Source of the DNA: Escherichia coli
Lineage (GTDB): Bacteria > Pseudomonadota > Gammaproteobacteria > Enterobacterales > Enterobacteriaceae
Direction: 5' to 3' (one strand)
NCBI RefSeq assembly: GCF_003334405.1
Contig: NZ_QOWM01000011.1
Length of the DNA stretch: 64,000 nt
Positions 815-63,197 of the stretch are shown here, one piece after another (the first letter of the stretch is position 1; the number at the start of each line of letters is the position of its first letter). The notes under the pieces are model-generated. The model had not been told where the DNA came from and did not search any database. It saw only the letters and a list, made by a program, of their open reading frames with translations. The translations under genes were made by a program, and so were the position numbers.

Positions 815-2053
815 ATGAAAGCATTGACTTATCACGGCCCACATCACGTTCAGGTAGAAAATGTTCCCGATCCGGGCGTTGAACAGGCAGATGATATTAT
901 TCTGCGTATTACGGCAACGGCGATCTGTGGCTCTGACCTCCATCTTTATCGAGGCAAAATACCTCAGGTTAAACATGGCGATATTTTTGGTCATGAATTT
1001 ATGGGGGAAGTAGTTGAAACCGGAAAGGACGTAAAAAATTTGCAAAAAGGCGACCGAGTGGTAATTCCGTTCGTCATTGCTTGTGGCGACTGTTTTTTCT
1101 GTCGATTGCAACAATATGCCGCCTGCGAAAATACCAATGCGGGTAAAGGCGCTGCGCTCAATAAAAAACAGATACCAGCTCCAGCGGCATTGTTTGGTTA
1201 TAGTCACCTGTATGGCGGCGTTCCTGGTGGGCAGGCGGAATATGTCCGCGTCCCTAAAGGGAATGTGGGGCCGTTTAAAGTACCGCCTTTGCTTTCAGAT
1301 GATAAAGCGCTTTTCCTTTCTGATATTCTGCCAACGGCATGGCAGGCAGCAAAAAATGCGCAGATCCAACAAGGTTCAAGCGTTGCAGTCTATGGTGCTG
1401 GTCCTGTGGGATTGTTGACAATCGCCTGTGCACGGTTGCTCGGTGCGGAACAGATTTTTGTTGTTGATCATCATCCCTACCGCTTGCATTTCGCCGCCGA
1501 CCGCTACGGCGCGATCCCGATTAATTTTGATGAAGACAGCGATCCGGCACAGTCAATTATTGAACAAACGGCAGGTCACCGGGGCGTGGATGCAGTAATA
1601 GACGCCGTCGGTTTTGAAGCGAAAGGCAGCACCACGGAAACGGTGCTGACTAACCTGAAACTGGAGGGCAGCAGCGGTAAAGCGTTGCGTCAGTGTATTG
1701 CGGCGGTCAGGCGTGGCGGCATTGTTAGCGTACCGGGCGTCTACGCTGGATTTATTCACGGTTTCCTGTTTGGCGACGCCTTTGATAAAGGGTTGTCGTT
1801 TAAAATGGGACAGACCCACGTTCACGCATGGCTGGGAGAATTATTACCGTTAATTGAGAAAGGATTACTGAAACCAGAAGAAATTGTTACCCACTATATG
1901 CCGTTTGAAGAGGCCGCCCGGGGATATGAGATTTTCGAAAAACGTGAAGAGGAGTGCCGTAAGGTGATTCTGGTACCCGGTGCACAAAGCGCAGAGGCGG
2001 CGCAGAAGGCGGTTTCAGGTCTGGTGAATGCGATGCCGGGGGGAACAATATGA
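815..2053 (+). CDS. ybdR: Zn-dependent alcohol dehydrogenase-like oxidoreductase
   Basis: 412-aa ORF with GHE.MGEVVE and CGSDLH zinc-ADH motifs and a GxGxxG Rossmann motif; GGAGG Shine-Dalgarno upstream. Confidence 0.9.
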
Positions 2054-2694: not shown

Positions 2695-2923
2695 TTTTAC
2701 TCCATGTCGTCGGTGCTGCGAGTGTCGCAGATAAACATACCCAAAAGAAAACCCTCACCGTCAGGCGGCGAGGGTTTAACTCACATGATGATACTGACTG
2801 TTGCTCACTCTTTGAAGTGATTTGCGTCACATTCAGGGAATTCCTCAATGCAGCGCATTATGTATAAATCTTAATCGCCTTGGTTTATGGAAGACGAATT
2901 AGCGTGTTTTGTAAATCAGATGA

Positions 2924-15283: not shown

Positions 15284-15844
15284 ATGAACGTGAGTAAATA
15301 TGTCGCTATCTTTTCCTTTGTTTTTATTCAGTTAATCAGCGTTGGTAAAGTTTTTGCTAACGCAGATGAGTGGATGACAACGTTTAGAGAAAATATTGCA
15401 CAAACCTGGCAACAGCCTGAACATTATGATTTATATATTCCTGCCATCACCTGGCATGCACGTTTCGCTTACGACAAAGAAAAAACCGATCGCTATAACG
15501 AGCGACCGTGGGGTGGCGGTTTTGGCCTGTCGCGTTGGGATGAAAAAGGAAACTGGCATGGCCTGTATGCCATGGCATTTAAGGACTCGTGGAACAAATG
15601 GGAACCGATTGCCGGATACGGATGGGAAAGTACCTGGCGACCGCTGGCGGATGAAAATTTTCATTTAGGTCTGGGATTCACCGCTGGCGTAACGGCACGC
15701 GATAACTGGAATTACATCCCTCTCCCGGTTCTACTGCCATTGGCCTCCGTGGGTTATGGCCCAGTGACTTTTCAGATGACCTACATTCCGGGTACCTACA
15801 ACAATGGCAATGTGTACTTTGCCTGGATGCGCTTTCAGTTTTGA
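15284..15844 (+). CDS. pagP: Lipid A palmitoyltransferase (outer-membrane beta-barrel)
   Basis: ORF 15260..15844; start at [10 protein letters not shown]... gives the 186-aa precursor with a signal peptide. Confidence 0.9.
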
Positions 15845-16018
15845 GACAAATGAAGTTTTAGTAACTTCTTTAAAATCAATAGCTAAAATAAGTAACATCA
15901 AAAATAACGCGACTTTTATCACTTTTTAGTAAAGTTACACTGGACAAAGCGTACCACAATTGGTGTACTGGTAACCGACACAGCATTTGTGTCTATTTTT
16001 CATGTAAAGGTAATTTTG

Positions 16019-16228
16019 ATGTCTAAGATTAAAGGTAACGTTAAGTGGTTTAATGAGTCCAAAGGATTCGGTTTCATTACTCCGGAAGACGGCAGCAAAG
16101 ACGTGTTCGTACACTTCTCTGCAATCCAGACTAATGGTTTTAAAACTCTTGCTGAAGGTCAGCGCGTAGAGTTCGAAATCACTAACGGTGCCAAAGGCCC
16201 TTCTGCTGCAAACGTAATCGCTCTGTAA
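16019..16228 (+). CDS. cspE: Cold-shock-domain protein E
   Basis: ORF 15989..16228; start at [20 protein letters not shown] (69 aa) with the RNP1 motif KGFGFI. Confidence 0.95.
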
Positions 16229-16244
16229 GATACGTCAGCAAGAA

Positions 16245-16277
16245 TTCAAAACCCGCTTAATCAGCGGGTTTTTTTTG
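16245..16277. terminator. Bidirectional rho-independent terminator between cspE and crcB
   Basis: aaaacccgcttaatcagcgggttttttt: 7-bp stem flanked by an A-run and a T-run. Confidence 0.8.
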
Positions 16278-16751: not shown

Positions 16752-17545
16752 GTGGCAATGCTGGTTGCCGCAGGACAGTTTGCTGTTACATCTGTGTGGG
16801 AAAAGAACGCTGAGATTTGTGCCTCGTTGATGGCGCAGGCGGCGGAAAACGACGTATCGCTGTTTGTCCTGCCGGAAGCATTGCTGGCGCGCGATGATCA
16901 TGATGCAGATCTATCGGTTAAATCAGCACAGCTGCTGGAAGGCGAATTCCTCGGACTTTACGGCGAGAAAGTAAACGTAACATGATGACGACAATTCTGA
17001 CGATTCATGTTCCTTCAACGCCGGGGCGCGCATGGAATATGCTGGTGGCACTTCAGGCAGGAAACATCGTCGCCCGTTATGCCAAACTGCATCTCTATGA
17101 TGCATTTGCCATTCAGGAATCACGCCGTGTTGATGCTGGTAATGAAATCGCTCCGTTACTGGAGGTGGAAGGGATGAAGGTCGGTCTGATGACCTGTTAT
17201 GACTTACGCTTTCCAGAGCTGGCGCTGGCACAGGCATTACAGGGAGCTGAAATCCTGGTACTTCCTGCCGCCTGGGTTCGCGGGCCGCTCAAAGAGCATC
17301 ACTGGTCAACGCTGCTTGCCGCTCGTGCGCTGGATACCACCTGTTATATGGTGGCGGCGGGGGAGTGCGGGAACAAAAATATCGGTCAAAGCCGGATTAT
17401 AGATCCCTTTGGCGTCACCATTGCGGCAGCGTCAGAAATGCCTGCACTCATTATGGCGGAAGTGACGCCCGAACGTGTGCGTCAGGTGCGCGCGCAACTG
17501 CCCGTCTTAAACAACCGTCGCTTTGCGCCGCCGCAATTATTATGA
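16752..17545 (+). pseudogene. ybeM: Carbon-nitrogen hydrolase family gene disrupted by a frameshift
   Basis: Two consecutive ORFs in different frames (16752..16985 and 16982..17545) together resemble one CN-hydrolase protein; the frame break is near 16980. Confidence 0.6.
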
Positions 17546-45407: not shown

Positions 45408-45443
45408 AGAAAAAAGAGGGTAGCAGCGTTAACTGCTACCCTC
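45408..45443 (-). terminator. Intrinsic terminator in the gltI-gltJ intergenic region (likely SroC 3' end)
   Basis: Perfect 11-bp stem gagggtagcag/ctgctaccctc followed on the minus strand by six U; ends about 2 nt before the gltJ Shine-Dalgarno. Confidence 0.7.
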
Positions 45444-45570
45444 GAAGATTGTTACCCAGCGTATTGCGGTTTTCAGGCCCGATGGGGAACGACCATCAGG
45501 CGTATAGTCTGTCCGTGCTACGTAACAATCGAGAGGGCTGGAATTTCCGCCCCTGGTTCTTGTAATTAGT
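45410..45570 (-). ncRNA. sroC: SroC small RNA region (3'-derived from the gltI transcript)
   Basis: Position in the gltI-gltJ intergenic region ending at the intrinsic terminator; assignment from remembered K-12 annotation; 5' end not determinable from sequence. Confidence 0.45.
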
Positions 45571-53957: not shown

Positions 53958-54032
53958 TGGCTGGGGTACGAGGATTCGAACCTCGGAATGCCGGAATCAG
54001 AATCCGGTGCCTTACCGCTTGGCGATACCCCA
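53958..54032 (-). tRNA. glnV: tRNA-Gln (anticodon CUG)
   Basis: 75-nt reverse complement matches the tRNA-Gln cloverleaf with anticodon loop TTCTGAT and 3' CCA; could equally be called glnX. Confidence 0.9.
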
Positions 54033-54079
54033 ACAAATTGGTTTTGAATTTGCCGAACATATTCGACACATTCAGAATT

Positions 54080-54156
54080 TGGTGGCTACGACGGGATTCG
54101 AACCTGTGACCCCATCATTATGAGTGATGTGCTCTAACCAACTGAGCTACGTAGCC
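54080..54156 (-). tRNA. metU: tRNA-Met elongator (anticodon CAU)
   Basis: 77-nt reverse complement GGCTACGTAGCTCAGTTGG...CCA with anticodon loop CTCATAA. Confidence 0.9.
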
Positions 54157-54171
54157 AGATTGTTTCTTCGA

Positions 54172-54246
54172 TGGCTGGGGTACCTGGATTCGAACCAGGG
54201 AATGCCGGTATCAAAAACCGGTGCCTTACCGCTTGGCGATACCCCA
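54172..54246 (-). tRNA. glnW: tRNA-Gln (anticodon UUG)
   Basis: 75-nt tRNA-Gln with anticodon loop TTTTGAT; could equally be called glnU. Confidence 0.9.
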
Positions 54247-54269
54247 TCCGTACAACGCTTTCTGGTGAA

Positions 54270-54354
54270 TGGTGCGGGAGGCGAGACTTGAACTCGCACA
54301 CCTTGCGGCGCCAGAACCTAAATCTGGTGCGTCTACCAATTTCGCCACTCCCGC
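54270..54354 (-). tRNA. leuW: tRNA-Leu (anticodon UAG)
   Basis: 85-nt reverse complement GCGGGAGTGGCGAAATTGG...CCA with a long variable arm and anticodon TAG. Confidence 0.9.
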
Positions 54355-54363
54355 AAAAAAAGA

Positions 54364-54440
54364 TGGTGGCTACGACGGGATTCGAACCTGTGACCCCATC
54401 ATTATGAGTGATGTGCTCTAACCAACTGAGCTACGTAGCC
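54364..54440 (-). tRNA. metT: tRNA-Met elongator (anticodon CAU)
   Basis: 77-nt copy of the same tRNA-Met as 54080..54156. Confidence 0.9.
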
Positions 54441-56730: not shown

Positions 56731-56830
56731 TGCCGGATGCGGCGTGAACGCCTTATCCGGCCTACAAAAGCATGAAAATTCAATATATTGCAGGAGCTGC
56801 GTAGGCCTGATAAGCGTAGCGCATCAGGCA
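56731..56830. repeat. REP/BIME cluster between asnB and umpH
   Basis: tgccggatgcggcgtgaacgccttatccggcctac and gtaggcctgataagcgtagcgcatcaggc match REP consensus palindromes. Confidence 0.65.
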
Positions 56831-56880: not shown

Positions 56881-57633
56881 TCAGATAACGTCGATTTCAG
56901 CGACTGACGGGTAAATCCAGCTGGGGCGGAAAGGCATACTGTCGATATCGTCGAGCGACGAAACACCAGAAAGCACCAGAATCGTCTCCAGACCTGCCTG
57001 GAAGCCGGCCAGAATATCGGTACGCAGGTTATCGCCGACAATCACCGTTTCTTCCGAATGCGCCTGCATTTTGTTTAATGCTGCGCGGATGATCCACGGG
57101 CTGGGCTTACCAACATAGAACGGTTTGCGCCCGGAGATTTTCTCAATCCCTGCACACAACGCGCCACAAGCGGGATAAAAACCGCGCCCGTGGGTGTCCG
57201 GATTGGTGGCGATAAAACGTGCACCGTTAGCGACGAAATAGGCTGCTTTATGCATCATGTCCCAGTTGTAGGAACGCGTTTCGCCAACAATCACGAAATC
57301 AGGGTTCACATCGGTAATAGTGAAACCGGCTTTGTACAGTTCATGAATCAGTGCGCCTTCGCCCACCACATACGCTTTCTTGCCTTCCTGGCGACGCAGG
57401 AAATCGGCAGTCGCCATCGCAGAGGTATAAAACACGCTGTCAGGTACATCGACACCTGCGGTGGCAAAGCGGTTCGCCAGATCTTGCCCAGTCTGCGAAG
57501 GATAGTTGGTCAGCAACACCAGCGGCAGGCCTTTATCCATAATCCCGTGCAAAAATTCCGCTGCACCCGGTACGGCGACGTTATCGTGCATCAGCACGCC
57601 GTCGATATCGCAAATTACATTTTTAATGGTCAT
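56881..57633 (-). CDS. umpH: HAD-superfamily UMP phosphatase
   Basis: 250-aa ORF with the HAD motif I DIDGVL. Confidence 0.9.
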   Translation of the reverse strand: MTIKNVICDIDGVLMHDNVAVPGAAEFLHGIMDKGLPLVLLTNYPSQTGQDLANRFATAGVDVPDSVFYTSAMATADFLRRQEGKKAYVVGEGALIHELYKAGFTITDVNPDFVIVGETRSYNWDMMHKAAYFVANGARFIATNPDTHGRGFYPACGALCAGIEKISGRKPFYVGKPSPWIIRAALNKMQAHSEETVIVGDNLRTDILAGFQAGLETILVLSGVSSLDDIDSMPFRPSWIYPSVAEIDVI

Positions 57634-57680
57634 GGACTACCCAGAATATTGACAACAATAAGCGCCACTATAAAAGCACA

Positions 57681-58901
57681 TTAATTTTCCAGCAAATGCT
57701 GGAGCAAAATACCGTTGAGCATGGCGCGTTTTACCAGCGCAAAAGCGCCGATTGCCGAGCGGTGATCCAGCTCAGAACGTACCACCGGCAGATTAGTGCG
57801 AAACGCCTTCAGCGCCTGGGTATTAATGCAGCTTTCAATAGCAGGGAGCAGCACTTTATCGGCTTCGGTGATTTCACCGGCAATAACAATTTTTTGCGGA
57901 TTAAATAAGTTGATAGCAATGGCGATGGTTTTACCCAGATGACGACCGACATACTCAATTACTTCCGACGCCAGACTATCGCCTTTGTTCGCGGCTTTGC
58001 AGATAGTTTTGATGGTGCAGTCGTCCAGCGGCACGCGGCTCTGGTAGCCCTGCTTTAACAGATTCAACACCCGTTGTTCAATGGCAGCGTTGGCAGCGAT
58101 AGTTTCCAGGCAGCCAAAGTTGCCGCAGTGGCAGCGTTCACCCAGCGGTTCGACCTGAATATGGCCAATTTCACCGACGTTGCCGTTGCGGCCAATAAAA
58201 ATGCGCCCGTTAGAGATAATCCCGGCCCCGGTTCCGCGATGGACACGCACCAGAATGGAGTCTTCGCAATCCTGACTTGCACCGAAGTAGTGCTCCGCCA
58301 GCGCCAGACTACGGATATCGTGACCAACGAAACAGGTCACTTTAAAACGTTCTTCCAGAGCTTCTACCAGCCCCCAGTTTTCTACCTGAATATGCGGCAT
58401 GTAATGAATTTTGCCGCTGTCCGGGTCAACAAGCCCTGGCAGGATCACCGAAATCGCGATCAGCTCGCGCAGTTTGCGCTGGTAGCTATCAATAAACTGA
58501 GCAATGGCATTCAACAGGGCATGTTCCAGCGTTTGCTGGGTACGTTCCGGCAGCGGGTAATGTTCTTCTGCCAGCACTTTGCTGCTGAGATCAAACAGAG
58601 TGATGGTGGCGTCATGACGACCAAGCCGTACGCCGATTGCGTGGAAATTGCGGGTTTCGGTGACGATGGAGATAGCGCGGCGGCCCCCGGTGGAGGCCTG
58701 CTGATCAACTTCTTTGATCAGCCCGCGTTCGATAAGCTGACGCGTAATTTTGGTTACGCTGGCGGGGGCAAGCTGGCTTTGCTCGGCAATCTGAATCCGC
58801 GAGATTGGCCCGTACTGGTCAATCAGGCGATAAACCGCCGCGCTGTTAAGCTGTTTTACGAGATCAACATTACCTATCTGAGCTTGTCCGCCTGGTGTCA
58901 T
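57681..58901 (-). CDS. nagC: N-acetylglucosamine repressor (ROK family)
   Basis: 406-aa ORF with an N-terminal HTH and ROK sugar-kinase-like fold. Confidence 0.95.
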   Translation of the reverse strand: MTPGGQAQIGNVDLVKQLNSAAVYRLIDQYGPISRIQIAEQSQLAPASVTKITRQLIERGLIKEVDQQASTGGRRAISIVTETRNFHAIGVRLGRHDATITLFDLSSKVLAEEHYPLPERTQQTLEHALLNAIAQFIDSYQRKLRELIAISVILPGLVDPDSGKIHYMPHIQVENWGLVEALEERFKVTCFVGHDIRSLALAEHYFGASQDCEDSILVRVHRGTGAGIISNGRIFIGRNGNVGEIGHIQVEPLGERCHCGNFGCLETIAANAAIEQRVLNLLKQGYQSRVPLDDCTIKTICKAANKGDSLASEVIEYVGRHLGKTIAIAINLFNPQKIVIAGEITEADKVLLPAIESCINTQALKAFRTNLPVVRSELDHRSAIGAFALVKRAMLNGILLQHLLEN

Positions 58902-58909
58902 ACTTTCTC

Positions 58910-60918
<2,009 letters not shown>

Positions 60919-61010
60919 TATTCACCTCAATAAGTAAAATGTAAGCCGTTGGCGGATTAGGCATCTTTAAGCGTAACCTGGATTTGCGCAGACAGGCGTC
61001 AATCCGACCT

Positions 61011-61033
61011 GATTTTTTGAATGATAAAATAAG
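61011..61033. promoter_or_regulatory. Putative NagC operator, nagB-proximal
   Basis: AT-rich pseudo-palindrome gattttttgaatgataaaataag, about 95 bp from the second box. Confidence 0.35.
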
Positions 61034-61077
61034 TTTTCTGGTTTAGCCAGTAAAAGGGAGTGATGATAACGATATTT

Positions 61078-61093
61078 GGTGACAAAACTCACA
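61078..61093. promoter_or_regulatory. Putative CRP binding site in the nagE-nagB divergent region
   Basis: GGTGA-caaaac-TCACA matches TGTGA-N6-TCACA at 9 of 10 positions. Confidence 0.45.
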
Positions 61094-61106
61094 AAAGACA
61101 CGCGTT

Positions 61107-61128
61107 TAATTTGCGATACGAATTAAAT
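61107..61128. promoter_or_regulatory. Putative NagC operator, nagE-proximal
   Basis: Pseudo-palindrome ttaatttgcgatacgaattaaa resembling NagC/Mlc-type operators. Confidence 0.4.
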
Positions 61129-61250
61129 TTTCACACACTCTGTAGCAGATGATCTAACAATCTGATTACAGAACATCGGCAGTACAATTTGCAGCAAAAT
61201 AAAAATACGGCTTGAAACGAGCCAAATAGGGTTCTCGTAGGGGGAATAAG

Positions 61251-63197
61251 ATGAATATTTTAGGTTTTTTCCAGCGACTCGGTAGGGCGTTACAGCTCCC
61301 TATCGCGGTGCTGCCGGTGGCGGCACTGTTGCTGCGATTCGGTCAGCCAGATTTACTTAACGTTGCGTTTATTGCCCAGGCGGGCGGTGCGATTTTTGAT
61401 AACCTCGCATTAATCTTCGCCATCGGTGTGGCATCCAGCTGGTCGAAAGACAGCGCTGGTGCGGCGGCGCTGGCGGGTGCGGTAGGTTACTTTGTGTTAA
61501 CCAAAGCGATGGTGACCATCAACCCAGAAATTAACATGGGTGTACTGGCGGGTATCATTACCGGTCTGGTTGGTGGCGCAGCCTATAACCGTTGGTCCGA
61601 TATTAAACTGCCGGACTTCCTGAGCTTCTTCGGCGGCAAACGCTTTGTGCCGATTGCCACCGGATTCTTCTGCCTGGTGCTGGCGGCCATTTTTGGTTAC
61701 GTCTGGCCGCCGGTACAGCACGCTATCCATGCAGGCGGCGAGTGGATCGTTTCTGCGGGCGCGCTGGGTTCCGGTATCTTTGGTTTCATCAACCGTCTGC
61801 TGATCCCAACCGGTCTGCATCAGGTACTGAACACCATCGCCTGGTTCCAGATTGGTGAATTCACCAACGCGGCGGGTACGGTTTTCCACGGTGACATTAA
61901 CCGCTTCTATGCCGGTGACGGCACCGCGGGGATGTTCATGTCCGGCTTCTTCCCGATCATGATGTTCGGTCTGCCGGGTGCGGCGCTGGCGATGTACTTC
62001 GCAGCACCGAAAGAGCGTCGTCCGATGGTTGGCGGTATGCTGCTTTCTGTTGCTGTTACTGCGTTCCTGACCGGTGTGACTGAGCCGCTGGAATTCCTGT
62101 TCATGTTCCTTGCTCCGCTGCTGTACCTCCTGCACGCACTGCTGACCGGTATCAGCCTGTTTGTGGCAACGCTGCTGGGTATCCACGCGGGCTTCTCTTT
62201 CTCTGCGGGGGCTATCGACTACGCGTTGATGTATAACCTGCCGGCCGCCAGCCAGAACGTCTGGATGCTGCTGGTGATGGGCGTTATCTTCTTCGCTATC
62301 TACTTCGTGGTGTTCAGTTTGGTTATCCGCATGTTCAACCTGAAAACGCCGGGTCGTGAAGATAAAGAAGACGAGATCGTTACTGAAGAAGCCAACAGCA
62401 ACACTGAAGAAGGTCTGACTCAACTGGCAACCAACTATATTGCTGCGGTTGGCGGCACTGACAACCTGAAAGCGATTGACGCCTGTATCACCCGTCTGCG
62501 CCTTACAGTGGCTGACTCTGCCCGCGTTAACGATACGATGTGTAAACGTCTGGGTGCTTCTGGGGTAGTGAAACTGAACAAACAGACTATTCAGGTGATT
62601 GTTGGCGCGAAAGCAGAATCCATCGGCGATGCGATGAAGAAAGTCGTTGCCCGTGGTCCGGTAGCCGCTGCGTCAGCTGAAGCAACTCCGGCAACTGCCG
62701 CGCCTGTAGCAAAACCGCAGGCTGTACCAAACGCGGTATCTATCGCGGAGCTGGTATCGCCGATTACCGGTGATGTCGTGGCACTGGATCAGGTTCCTGA
62801 CGAAGCATTCGCCAGCAAAGCGGTGGGTGACGGTGTGGCGGTGAAACCGACAGATAAAATCGTCGTATCACCAGCCGCAGGGACAATCGTGAAAATCTTC
62901 AACACCAACCACGCGTTCTGCCTGGAAACCGAAAAAGGCGCGGAGATCGTCGTCCATATGGGTATCGACACCGTAGCGCTGGAAGGTAAAGGCTTTAAAC
63001 GTCTGGTGGAAGAGGGTGCGCAGGTAAGCGCAGGGCAACCGATTCTGGAAATGGATCTGGATTACCTGAACGCTAACGCCCGCTCGATGATTAGCCCGGT
63101 GGTTTGCAGCAATATCGACGATTTCAGTGGCTTGATCATTAAAGCTCAGGGCCATGTTGTGGCGGGTCAAACACCGCTGTATGAAATCAAAAAGTAA
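61251..63197 (+). CDS. nagE: PTS N-acetylglucosamine-specific EIICBA component
   Basis: 648-aa ORF with N-terminal EIIC membrane domain, EIIB cysteine region (CITRLR) and C-terminal EIIA. Confidence 0.95.
   Translation: MNILGFFQRLGRALQLPIAVLPVAALLLRFGQPDLLNVAFIAQAGGAIFDNLALIFAIGVASSWSKDSAGAAALAGAVGYFVLTKAMVTINPEINMGVLAGIITGLVGGAAYNRWSDIKLPDFLSFFGGKRFVPIATGFFCLVLAAIFGYVWPPVQHAIHAGGEWIVSAGALGSGIFGFINRLLIPTGLHQVLNTIAWFQIGEFTNAAGTVFHGDINRFYAGDGTAGMFMSGFFPIMMFGLPGAALAMYFAAPKERRPMVGGMLLSVAVTAFLTGVTEPLEFLFMFLAPLLYLLHALLTGISLFVATLLGIHAGFSFSAGAIDYALMYNLPAASQNVWMLLVMGVIFFAIYFVVFSLVIRMFNLKTPGREDKEDEIVTEEANSNTEEGLTQLATNYIAAVGGTDNLKAIDACITRLRLTVADSARVNDTMCKRLGASGVVKLNKQTIQVIVGAKAESIGDAMKKVVARGPVAAASAEATPATAAPVAKPQAVPNAVSIAELVSPITGDVVALDQVPDEAFASKAVGDGVAVKPTDKIVVSPAAGTIVKIFNTNHAFCLETEKGAEIVVHMGIDTVALEGKGFKRLVEEGAQVSAGQPILEMDLDYLNANARSMISPVVCSNIDDFSGLIIKAQGHVVAGQTPLYEIKK

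What the first reader, a model, noticed from the sequence alone, without database searches (positions are those of the whole stretch)
61011..61128. nagE-nagB divergent region has two operator-like palindromes flanking a CRP-like site
Two AT-rich pseudo-palindromes (61011..61033 and 61107..61128) are about 95 bp apart, roughly nine helical turns, with GGTGA-N6-TCACA (61078..61093) between them. This fits repression by NagC through DNA looping over a CRP-activated divergent promoter pair.
Basis: partly seen in the sequence, partly recalled or inferred. Interest (0 to 1): 0.3.

Follow-up and report, generated by a model that had tools for sequence, protein, structure and literature searches.

The report
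Known NagC loop operators with CRP site

Summary
The window is E. coli chromosome: nagD-nagC-nagA-nagB on the minus strand, nagE on the plus strand, with a 332-bp spacer.

- **Operators.** Window 61011..61033 is an exact match (reverse complement) to the published nagB NagC operator. Window 61105..61127 is an exact match to the published nagE operator. The centres are 94 bp apart, about 9.0 helical turns.
- **Independent scan.** A weight matrix built only from eight other NagC operators ranks these two sites first and second of 63,978 positions in the window.
- **CRP site.** GGTGA-N6-TCACA lies exactly at 61078..61093. It sits next to the nagE operator, not at mid-loop.
- **Conservation.** In 58 of 60 other species' spacers (Enterobacterales, Aeromonas, Vibrionaceae) the two best NagC hits are 93 or 94 bp apart. 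The CRP core stays at a fixed offset.
- **Literature.** NagC binds both operators cooperatively by DNA looping, the weak nagE operator depends on the strong nagB operator, and GlcNAc-6-P is the inducer.

The only less expected item is a side observation. The NagE membrane (IIC) domain comes in two deeply divergent forms, and the changeover starts about 13 bp past the nagE operator.

The parts
61011..61033 (.). nagB operator (BoxB), the strong NagC site. It is a 23-bp quasi-palindrome with TT/AA at +/-5,6 and G at both +/-11.
   Evidence: Exact reverse-complement match to the published CTTATTTTATCATTCAAAAAATC. PWM rank 2 in the window. Conserved in 58 of 60 other species; 44 of those 58 have G/G at +/-11.
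61105..61127 (.). nagE operator (BoxE), the weak or 'hybrid' NagC site. It has TT/AA at +/-5,6 and A/T at +/-11.
   Evidence: Exact match to the published TTTAATTTGCGATACGAATTAAA. PWM rank 1. A/T at both +/-11 in 58 of 58 orthologous sites. PMC4288165 describes it as dependent on the nagB operator through looping.
61075..61096 (.). cAMP-CRP (CAP) site. The core GGTGA-N6-TCACA is at 61078..61093 and the centre is 61085.5.
   Evidence: Sequence read. 9 of 10 core match. Half-sites are conserved and the N6 spacer is variable. Core with <=2 mismatches at the fixed offset in 54 of 58 species. CRP involvement at the nag divergent operons is stated in PMC2946308. Footprint details come from Plumbridge & Kolb 1991 and are my own knowledge; that paper was not held.
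61021..61026 (-). Inferred nagB -10 hexamer TATCAT, inside BoxB.
   Evidence: Inference from the sequence. TATCAT, TATGAT or TATTAT at this place in 46 of 58 species. Consistent with a nagB start near 61014, which would put CRP at -71.5 (recalled, not verified here).
61044..61049 (-). Inferred nagB -35 (TGGCTA on the minus strand). It overlaps the conserved GCCAG block at 61046..61050.
   Evidence: Conserved block between BoxB and the CRP site. It lies 17 bp from TATCAT. This is inference only.
61134..61139 (+). Inferred weak nagE -10 (CACACT), with -35 TTGCGA at 61111..61116 inside BoxE.
   Evidence: Inference from the sequence and from a recalled nagE start near 61147 (CRP at -61.5). The consensus promoter scan found nothing here, as expected for a weak CRP-dependent promoter.
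60118..60918 (-). nagB (glucosamine-6-phosphate deaminase), first gene of nagBACD.
   Evidence: ORF. RefSeq annotation of an identical E. coli region.
61251..63197 (+). nagE (GlcNAc PTS transporter IIABC).
   Evidence: ORF. Annotation. NCBIfam NF007608 at 1448.6 bits.
57681..58901 (-). nagC, the gene for the repressor that binds both operators. It lies in the operon it represses.
   Evidence: ORF. Annotated as DNA-binding transcriptional regulator NagC.

Best explanation
This is the nagE-nagBACD divergent control region of E. coli.

1. NagC, a ROK-family repressor encoded in the same operon, binds a strong operator over the nagB -10/+1 region (61011..61033) and a weak operator over the nagE -35/spacer region (61105..61127).
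2. The two centres are 94 bp apart, about nine helical turns, so both bound repressors lie on the same face of the DNA. They interact, looping out the intervening DNA and shutting both promoters.
3. The weak nagE operator is occupied only through this cooperativity.
4. A cAMP-CRP site centred at 61085.5 lies inside the loop next to the nagE operator. It is about 6 turns from BoxB and about 3 turns from BoxE. It activates both promoters from class-I-type positions once NagC is released by the inducer GlcNAc-6-phosphate.

Shown here: identity of the two sites with the published operators, their statistical distinctness, and deep conservation of sites, spacing and CRP offset.

Taken from the literature: binding, looping, inducer and CRP dependence.

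Inferred or recalled: the exact transcription starts and the -10/-35 hexamers.
For: - Exact matches to the published operators.
- A PWM trained without the nag sites ranks them first and second of 63,978 positions. Shuffle P = 0.0006 for the best site and 0 of 5000 for the pair.
- E. coli nag gene order is confirmed by annotation.
- In 58 of 60 other species the two best NagC hits are 93 or 94 bp apart, against 1 of 380 control segments of the window.
- The CRP core is held at a fixed offset with conserved half-sites and a variable N6 spacer.
- The strong/weak asymmetry at +/-11 is conserved.
- Literature: looping and dependence of the nagE operator on the nagB operator (PMC4288165). A phasing change derepresses both operons, and CRP is involved (PMC2946308). 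Two sites and looping are required at nagE-B (PMC5401889). GlcNAc-6P is the inducer (PMC8964723; PMC10634360; PMC3551598).
Against: Nothing contradicts it. Four limits apply.
- The primary footprinting papers (Plumbridge & Kolb 1991, 1993, 1998; Plumbridge 2001) are not in the held library. The CRP footprint position and the transcription starts therefore rest on my recollection and on sequence inference.
- The CRP core alone is not enriched in the window.
- The consensus promoter scan does not find the two promoters.
- The NagC and Mlc logos are essentially indistinguishable, so the PWM does not by itself name the protein.
Confidence: 0.95

Rival explanations
1. The two sites are operators for Mlc, the NagC paralogue, rather than for NagC.
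For: The Mlc and NagC logos are essentially indistinguishable (PMC4288165). The nagE operator has A/T at +/-11, the Mlc-type signature, and is described as a hybrid site.
Against: [quoted passage not shown] The nagB operator has G at both +/-11, the NagC-type signature, conserved as G/G in 44 of 58 species. nagC itself sits in the operon.
Confidence: 0.02
2. NagC binds both sites, but each operator blocks its own promoter independently, and the 94-bp spacing is incidental.
For: Each operator overlaps its own inferred promoter elements, so simple occlusion is physically possible (sequence inference).
Against: A nagE fusion with only its own wild-type operator is not regulated by NagC (PMC4288165). 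Altering operator phasing derepresses both operons (PMC2946308). The 93/94-bp spacing is kept in 58 of 60 species while the sequence between the sites varies freely.
Confidence: 0.03
3. These are chance AT-rich pseudo-palindromes in an AT-rich spacer (38.6% G+C), or generic nucleoid-protein sites.
For: The spacer is AT-rich. The nagB operator is only 5 of 11 symmetric. The repeat finder did not report either site.
Against: Dinucleotide-preserving shuffles almost never reach these scores. Both sites are exactly the published operators. Both are conserved from Vibrionaceae to Escherichia.
Confidence: 0.005

Closest known systems
E. coli K-12 nagE-nagBACD regulatory region (NagC BoxB/BoxE plus CAP site; Plumbridge & Kolb 1991, 1993, 1995, 1998; Plumbridge 2001)
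   Same: It is this very locus. Both operator sequences are identical to the published ones, the spacing is 94 bp, the CRP core is present, and the flanking genes are the same.
   Different: Nothing of substance. The strain is not necessarily K-12: the window is 99.99% identical to strain 300709 over 50 kb, and the tRNA cluster has 5 genes.
Other two-operator NagC targets (glmUS, chbBCARFG, fimB, manXYZ)
   Same: [quoted passage not shown]
   Different: Distances and outcomes differ. For example, NagC activates glmUS. Here the loop is short, at 94 bp, and encloses a CRP site shared by two divergent promoters.
Classical short repression loops that involve CRP (lac O1-O3 with CAP, deoP2 CytR/CRP)
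   Same: A repressor bridges two in-phase operators with a CRP-bent segment inside or beside the loop (general knowledge).
   Different: A different repressor family (ROK rather than LacI/GalR), two divergent promoters are repressed at once, and the design pairs a strong with a weak operator.
Mlc operators (ptsG, ptsHI, manX, malT, mlc)
   Same: A nearly identical logo. BoxE carries the A/T at +/-11 typical of Mlc sites.
   Different: BoxB has G at +/-11, and no physiological regulation by Mlc is reported.

Membership tests
NagC (ROK family) operator | 23-bp quasi-palindrome with invariant TT at -6,-5 and AA at +5,+6 | tested here: met
   BoxB has TT at 61016-17 and AA at 61027-28. BoxE has TT at 61110-11 and AA at 61121-22. 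The rule is from PMC4288165.
NagC (ROK family) operator | Identity with experimentally defined operators | tested here: met
   Exact matches to the nagB and nagE entries of FITBAR Table 1.
NagC (ROK family) operator | C or G at +/-11 (high-affinity, NagC-specific sites) | tested here: met
   Met for BoxB (G/G). Not met for BoxE (T/A), which is exactly what PMC4288165 reports for the wild-type nagE operator.
NagC repression loop | Two operators in helical phase | tested here: met
   94 bp is 8.95 turns. The spacing is 93 or 94 bp in 58 of 60 other species, against 1 of 380 control segments.
NagC repression loop | Repression requires both operators and correct phasing; NagC is released by GlcNAc-6P | not testable with these tools
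   Literature only: PMC4288165, PMC2946308, PMC5401889, PMC8964723.
NagC repression loop | Cognate repressor gene present | tested here: met
   nagC at 57681..58901, minus strand, within nagBACD.
cAMP-CRP class I activator site | TGTGA-N6-TCACA core | tested here: met
   GGTGA-CAAAAC-TCACA matches 9 of 10 core positions. Half-sites are conserved and the spacer is variable. <=2 mismatches in 54 of 58 species.
cAMP-CRP class I activator site | Centre near -61.5, -71.5 and so on from the transcription start | tested here: inconclusive
   Inferred -10 hexamers give starts near 61147 (nagE) and 61014 (nagB), which would put CRP at -61.5 and -71.5. The starts are recalled or inferred, not verified; the promoter scan found neither.
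cAMP-CRP class I activator site | cAMP-CRP dependence of expression | not testable with these tools
   PMC2946308 states that CRP is involved at the NagC-regulated divergent operons. The primary papers were not held.
Mlc operator | A/T at +/-11 and repression by Mlc in vivo | tested here: not met
   BoxB has G/G. BoxE has A/T, but no cross-regulation occurs at physiological levels (PMC4288165).

The most novel reading that the evidence does not exclude
The operator-CRP-operator module is an ancient, rigid unit: 93/94-bp spacing, fixed CRP offset, and a strong BoxB paired with a weak BoxE, from Vibrionaceae to Escherichia.

It also marks the left edge of a replaceable nagE segment. The nagE 5'UTR and the IIC domain (partly also IIB) exist in two forms that are only about 44% identical. 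The changeover starts at about window 61140, 13 bp past BoxE, while the IIA domain and nagB follow species relatedness.

The E. coli-type IIC may have spread laterally between Enterobacterales by recombination anchored in the conserved control region. I found no description of this in the held literature, but the search was shallow.
Probability: 0.3. Interest if true: 0.35.

Novelty: already known. Interest (0 to 1): 0.1.

Why it matters
For the finding itself there is little new. It re-identifies a classic model of repression by a short DNA loop at a pair of CRP-dependent divergent promoters, worked out from 1990 to 2015.

The comparative result has modest value. It shows that the exact spacing, the CRP offset and the deliberate strong/weak operator asymmetry are conserved across three orders of gamma-proteobacteria. 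That supports the published view that loop geometry, and not just operator presence, is under selection.

The nagE IIC dimorphism seen in passing could matter for understanding how PTS transporters are exchanged while their regulation is kept.

Tried and rejected
- The repeat finder (seed 6, minimum length 8) did not report either operator as an inverted repeat. The arms are short (7 nt for BoxE) or imperfect (BoxB).
- The consensus sigma-70 scan found neither promoter. Its only hit is CTTACA-17-AATAAT at 60945..60917, overlapping the nagB ribosome-binding site and start codon, at the rate expected by chance.
- Primary papers could not be read: PMC29661, PMC2446801, PMC394474, PMC147383, PMC177988 and PMC208918.
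- A full-text search for the CRP site sequence found no paper. A search for 'nagE-B' with CAP and loop gave only reference-list hits.
- The CRP core count in the window is not significant on its own.
- I did not build a CRP or Mlc PWM, because no verified site list was at hand.
- Other NagC-PWM hits were set aside. Those at 941..963 and 980..1002 lie inside the ybdR coding sequence. The one at 60916..60938 overlaps the nagB start codon.
- A megablast search for the B-type nagE 5' part in 5,426 complete E. coli genomes found nothing.

Full report
**What is there.** The window is E. coli chromosome. ORFs of 250, 406, 382 and 266 aa on the minus strand (56881..60918) and one of 648 aa on the plus strand (61251..63197) correspond to nagD, nagC, nagA, nagB and nagE. 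This follows from the RefSeq annotation of a strain whose sequence is identical over 60880..61290. That stretch is found in 5,425 of 5,426 complete E. coli genomes, and 5,410 of them are at least 99% identical. The spacer is 60919..61250, 332 bp, 38.6% G+C.

**Checking the observation.**
- Reading the sequence confirms GATTTTTTGAATGATAAAATAAG at 61011..61033 and GGTGA-CAAAAC-TCACA at 61078..61093.
- It also confirms TTTAATTTGCGATACGAATTAAA at 61105..61127.
- The operator centres are 61022 and 61116. They are 94 bp apart, 8.95 turns at 10.5 bp per turn.
- The CRP centre at 61085.5 is 63.5 bp (6.05 turns) from the first operator and 30.5 bp (2.9 turns) from the second.
- The three proteins would therefore lie on roughly the same face. 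The CRP site is adjacent to the nagE-side operator rather than in the middle.

**Are these the real operators?** The list of experimentally known NagC operators in the FITBAR paper (PMC3098098, Table 1) was compiled from El Qaidi & Plumbridge 2008 and J. Plumbridge, personal communication. It gives CTTATTTTATCATTCAAAAAATC for nagB and TTTAATTTGCGATACGAATTAAA for nagE. Both occur exactly once in the window. The first is the reverse complement of 61011..61033 and the second is at 61105..61127.

**Statistics without circularity.** I built a symmetrised weight matrix from the eight other operators in that list (chbB, manX, fimB1, fimB2, glmU, ydeN1, ydeN2, ybfM).
- Scanned over the whole window, it ranks 61105..61127 first (19.99 bits) and 61011..61033 second (14.38 bits) of 63,978 positions.
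- In 5000 dinucleotide-preserving shuffles of the spacer, the best score reached 19.99 in 0.06% of shuffles. No shuffle gave two non-overlapping hits of 14.38 or more.
- The CRP core by itself is unremarkable: 4 matches with at most 1 mismatch in the window against 2.1 expected.

**Comparative evidence.** A scan of one genome per species for NagB relatives returned 80 loci.
- 60 of them have a divergent nagE-like gene 250-500 bp upstream.
- In 58 of these 60, the two best hits of the same matrix in the spacer are 94 bp apart (49 loci) or 93 bp apart (9 loci). The window itself is a further 94-bp case. The control was 1 of 380 segments of equal length from the rest of the window.
- These loci span Enterobacterales (Citrobacter, Enterobacter, Yersinia, Serratia, Pectobacterium, Photorhabdus and others), Aeromonas and Vibrionaceae.
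- The CRP core sits 27 nt before the nagE-side operator with at most 2 mismatches in 54 of 58.
- Column conservation shows four sharp blocks: BoxB; a short GCCAG at 61046..61050; the two CRP half-sites with a variable N6 spacer between them; and BoxE. Sequence between the blocks is free to vary, which is the signature of protein-binding sites held at a fixed geometry.
- The functional asymmetry is conserved too. BoxB has G/G at +/-11 in 44 of 58 loci, and at least one C or G in 57 of 58. BoxE has A or T at both +/-11 in 58 of 58.

**Mechanism, from the literature that could be read.**
- PMC4288165 states that NagC and Mlc sites share invariant TT/AA at +/-5,6, and that high-affinity NagC sites have C/G at +/-11.
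[quoted passage not shown] A nagE fusion with only its own operator is not regulated by NagC.
- PMC2946308 summarises that altering the phasing between the NagC operators derepresses both divergent operons because the repression loop cannot form, and that CRP is involved.
- PMC5401889 lists nagE-B among targets that need two sites and looping.
- GlcNAc-6-phosphate is the inducer that removes NagC from DNA.
- The primary footprinting papers were not available.
- From my own knowledge of those papers, CAP was footprinted at this site next to the nagE operator and stabilises the loop. The two starts are about 133 bp apart, which would put CAP at -61.5 (nagE) and -71.5 (nagB). These points are recalled, not verified here.

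**Promoters (inference).**
- On the minus strand, TATCAT at 61026..61021 lies inside BoxB. It is TATCAT, TATGAT or TATTAT in 46 of 58 species.
- 17 bp upstream of it is TGGCTA (61049..61044), which overlaps the conserved GCCAG block.
- This fits a nagB start near 61014, so BoxB would cover about -19 to +4.
- For nagE, TTGCGA (61111..61116, inside BoxE) and CACACT (61134..61139) fit a start near 61147, so BoxE would cover about -42 to -20.
- The consensus scan did not pick up either promoter, as expected for weak activator-dependent promoters.

**Rivals.**
- Mlc binding is disfavoured by G at +/-11 of BoxB and by the reported lack of cross-regulation.
- Independent occlusion without looping is disfavoured by the reported single-operator result and the phasing result, and by the conserved 93/94-bp spacing.
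- Chance is excluded.

**Verdict.** Interest is low.

**Seen in passing: two forms of NagE.** The NagE protein next to this control region comes in two forms.
- Relative to the window's NagE, the IIC domain is either 86-99% identical (11 species: E. albertii, Enterobacter cloacae, Citrobacter, Kluyvera, Superficieibacter, Cedecea sulfonylureivorans, Rahnella bruchi, Budvicia and others) or only 42-45% identical (nearly all the rest, including Enterobacter asburiae).
- The IIA domain and NagB track species relatedness.
- In L002 (labelled E. coli, but only 94.7% identical in DNA over nagC-nagB), NagE is 44% identical in IIC, 64% in IIB and about 99-100% in IIA.
- In both L002 and L005, DNA similarity to the window stops at 61140, 13 bp after BoxE.
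- Both forms pass the NCBIfam GlcNAc-specific IIBC cut-off.
- No complete E. coli genome carries the second form at megablast level.
- In Rahnella bruchi and Budvicia the E. coli-type IIC (90.7% and 85.9% identity) is closer to E. coli than their NagB is (83.8% and 80.8%). This hints at lateral spread.
- I found no paper on this, but I did not look hard.

Noticed in passing
window 61141..~62435 (nagE 5'UTR, IIC and part of IIB); loci L002-L081: The NagE IIC domain is dimorphic across species: 86-99% or only 42-45% identical to E. coli, while IIA and NagB follow species relatedness. L002 NagE is a mosaic (IIC 44%, IIA about 100%). The left junction is at about window 61140, just past the nagE operator. 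E. coli-type IIC in Rahnella bruchi and Budvicia is more similar to E. coli than their NagB is, which suggests lateral replacement. No complete E. coli genome has the other type.
   Followed up: partly
window 61046..61050: A short GCCAG block between the nagB operator and the CRP site is conserved across about 50 species. It is probably the nagB -35 (TGGCTA on the minus strand, 17 bp from TATCAT), but no experiment was seen.
   Followed up: partly
window 941..963 and 980..1002: Two NagC-matrix hits (13.0 and 14.2 bits, third and fourth best in the window) lie 39 bp apart inside the ybdR coding sequence. They are probably chance matches.
   Followed up: partly
window 53958..54440 (minus strand): The tRNA cluster has five genes (Gln-CTG, Met, Gln-TTG, Leu-TAG, Met). 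From my own knowledge, K-12 carries seven here (glnX-glnV-metU-glnW-glnU-leuW-metT), so this strain has a shorter array.
   Followed up: no
window 45408..45570 (-), 2740..2848 (-), 15834..16276 (+), 56766..56808 (+): Rfam matches above gathering score: sroC sRNA (downstream of gltI), rnk leader, a cspA-type thermoregulator model over cspE, and ES036 sRNA near nagD/asnB.
   Followed up: no
window 16758..17545 (L082 16537..17324): In the near-identical strain 300709 the deaminated-glutathione amidase gene (ybeM) is annotated as frameshifted, a pseudogene. I did not check this in the window itself.
   Followed up: no
window 60917..60945 (minus strand): The only consensus promoter-like hit in the spacer (CTTACA-17-AATAAT) overlaps the nagB ribosome-binding site and start codon. 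The count matches chance expectation.
   Followed up: no
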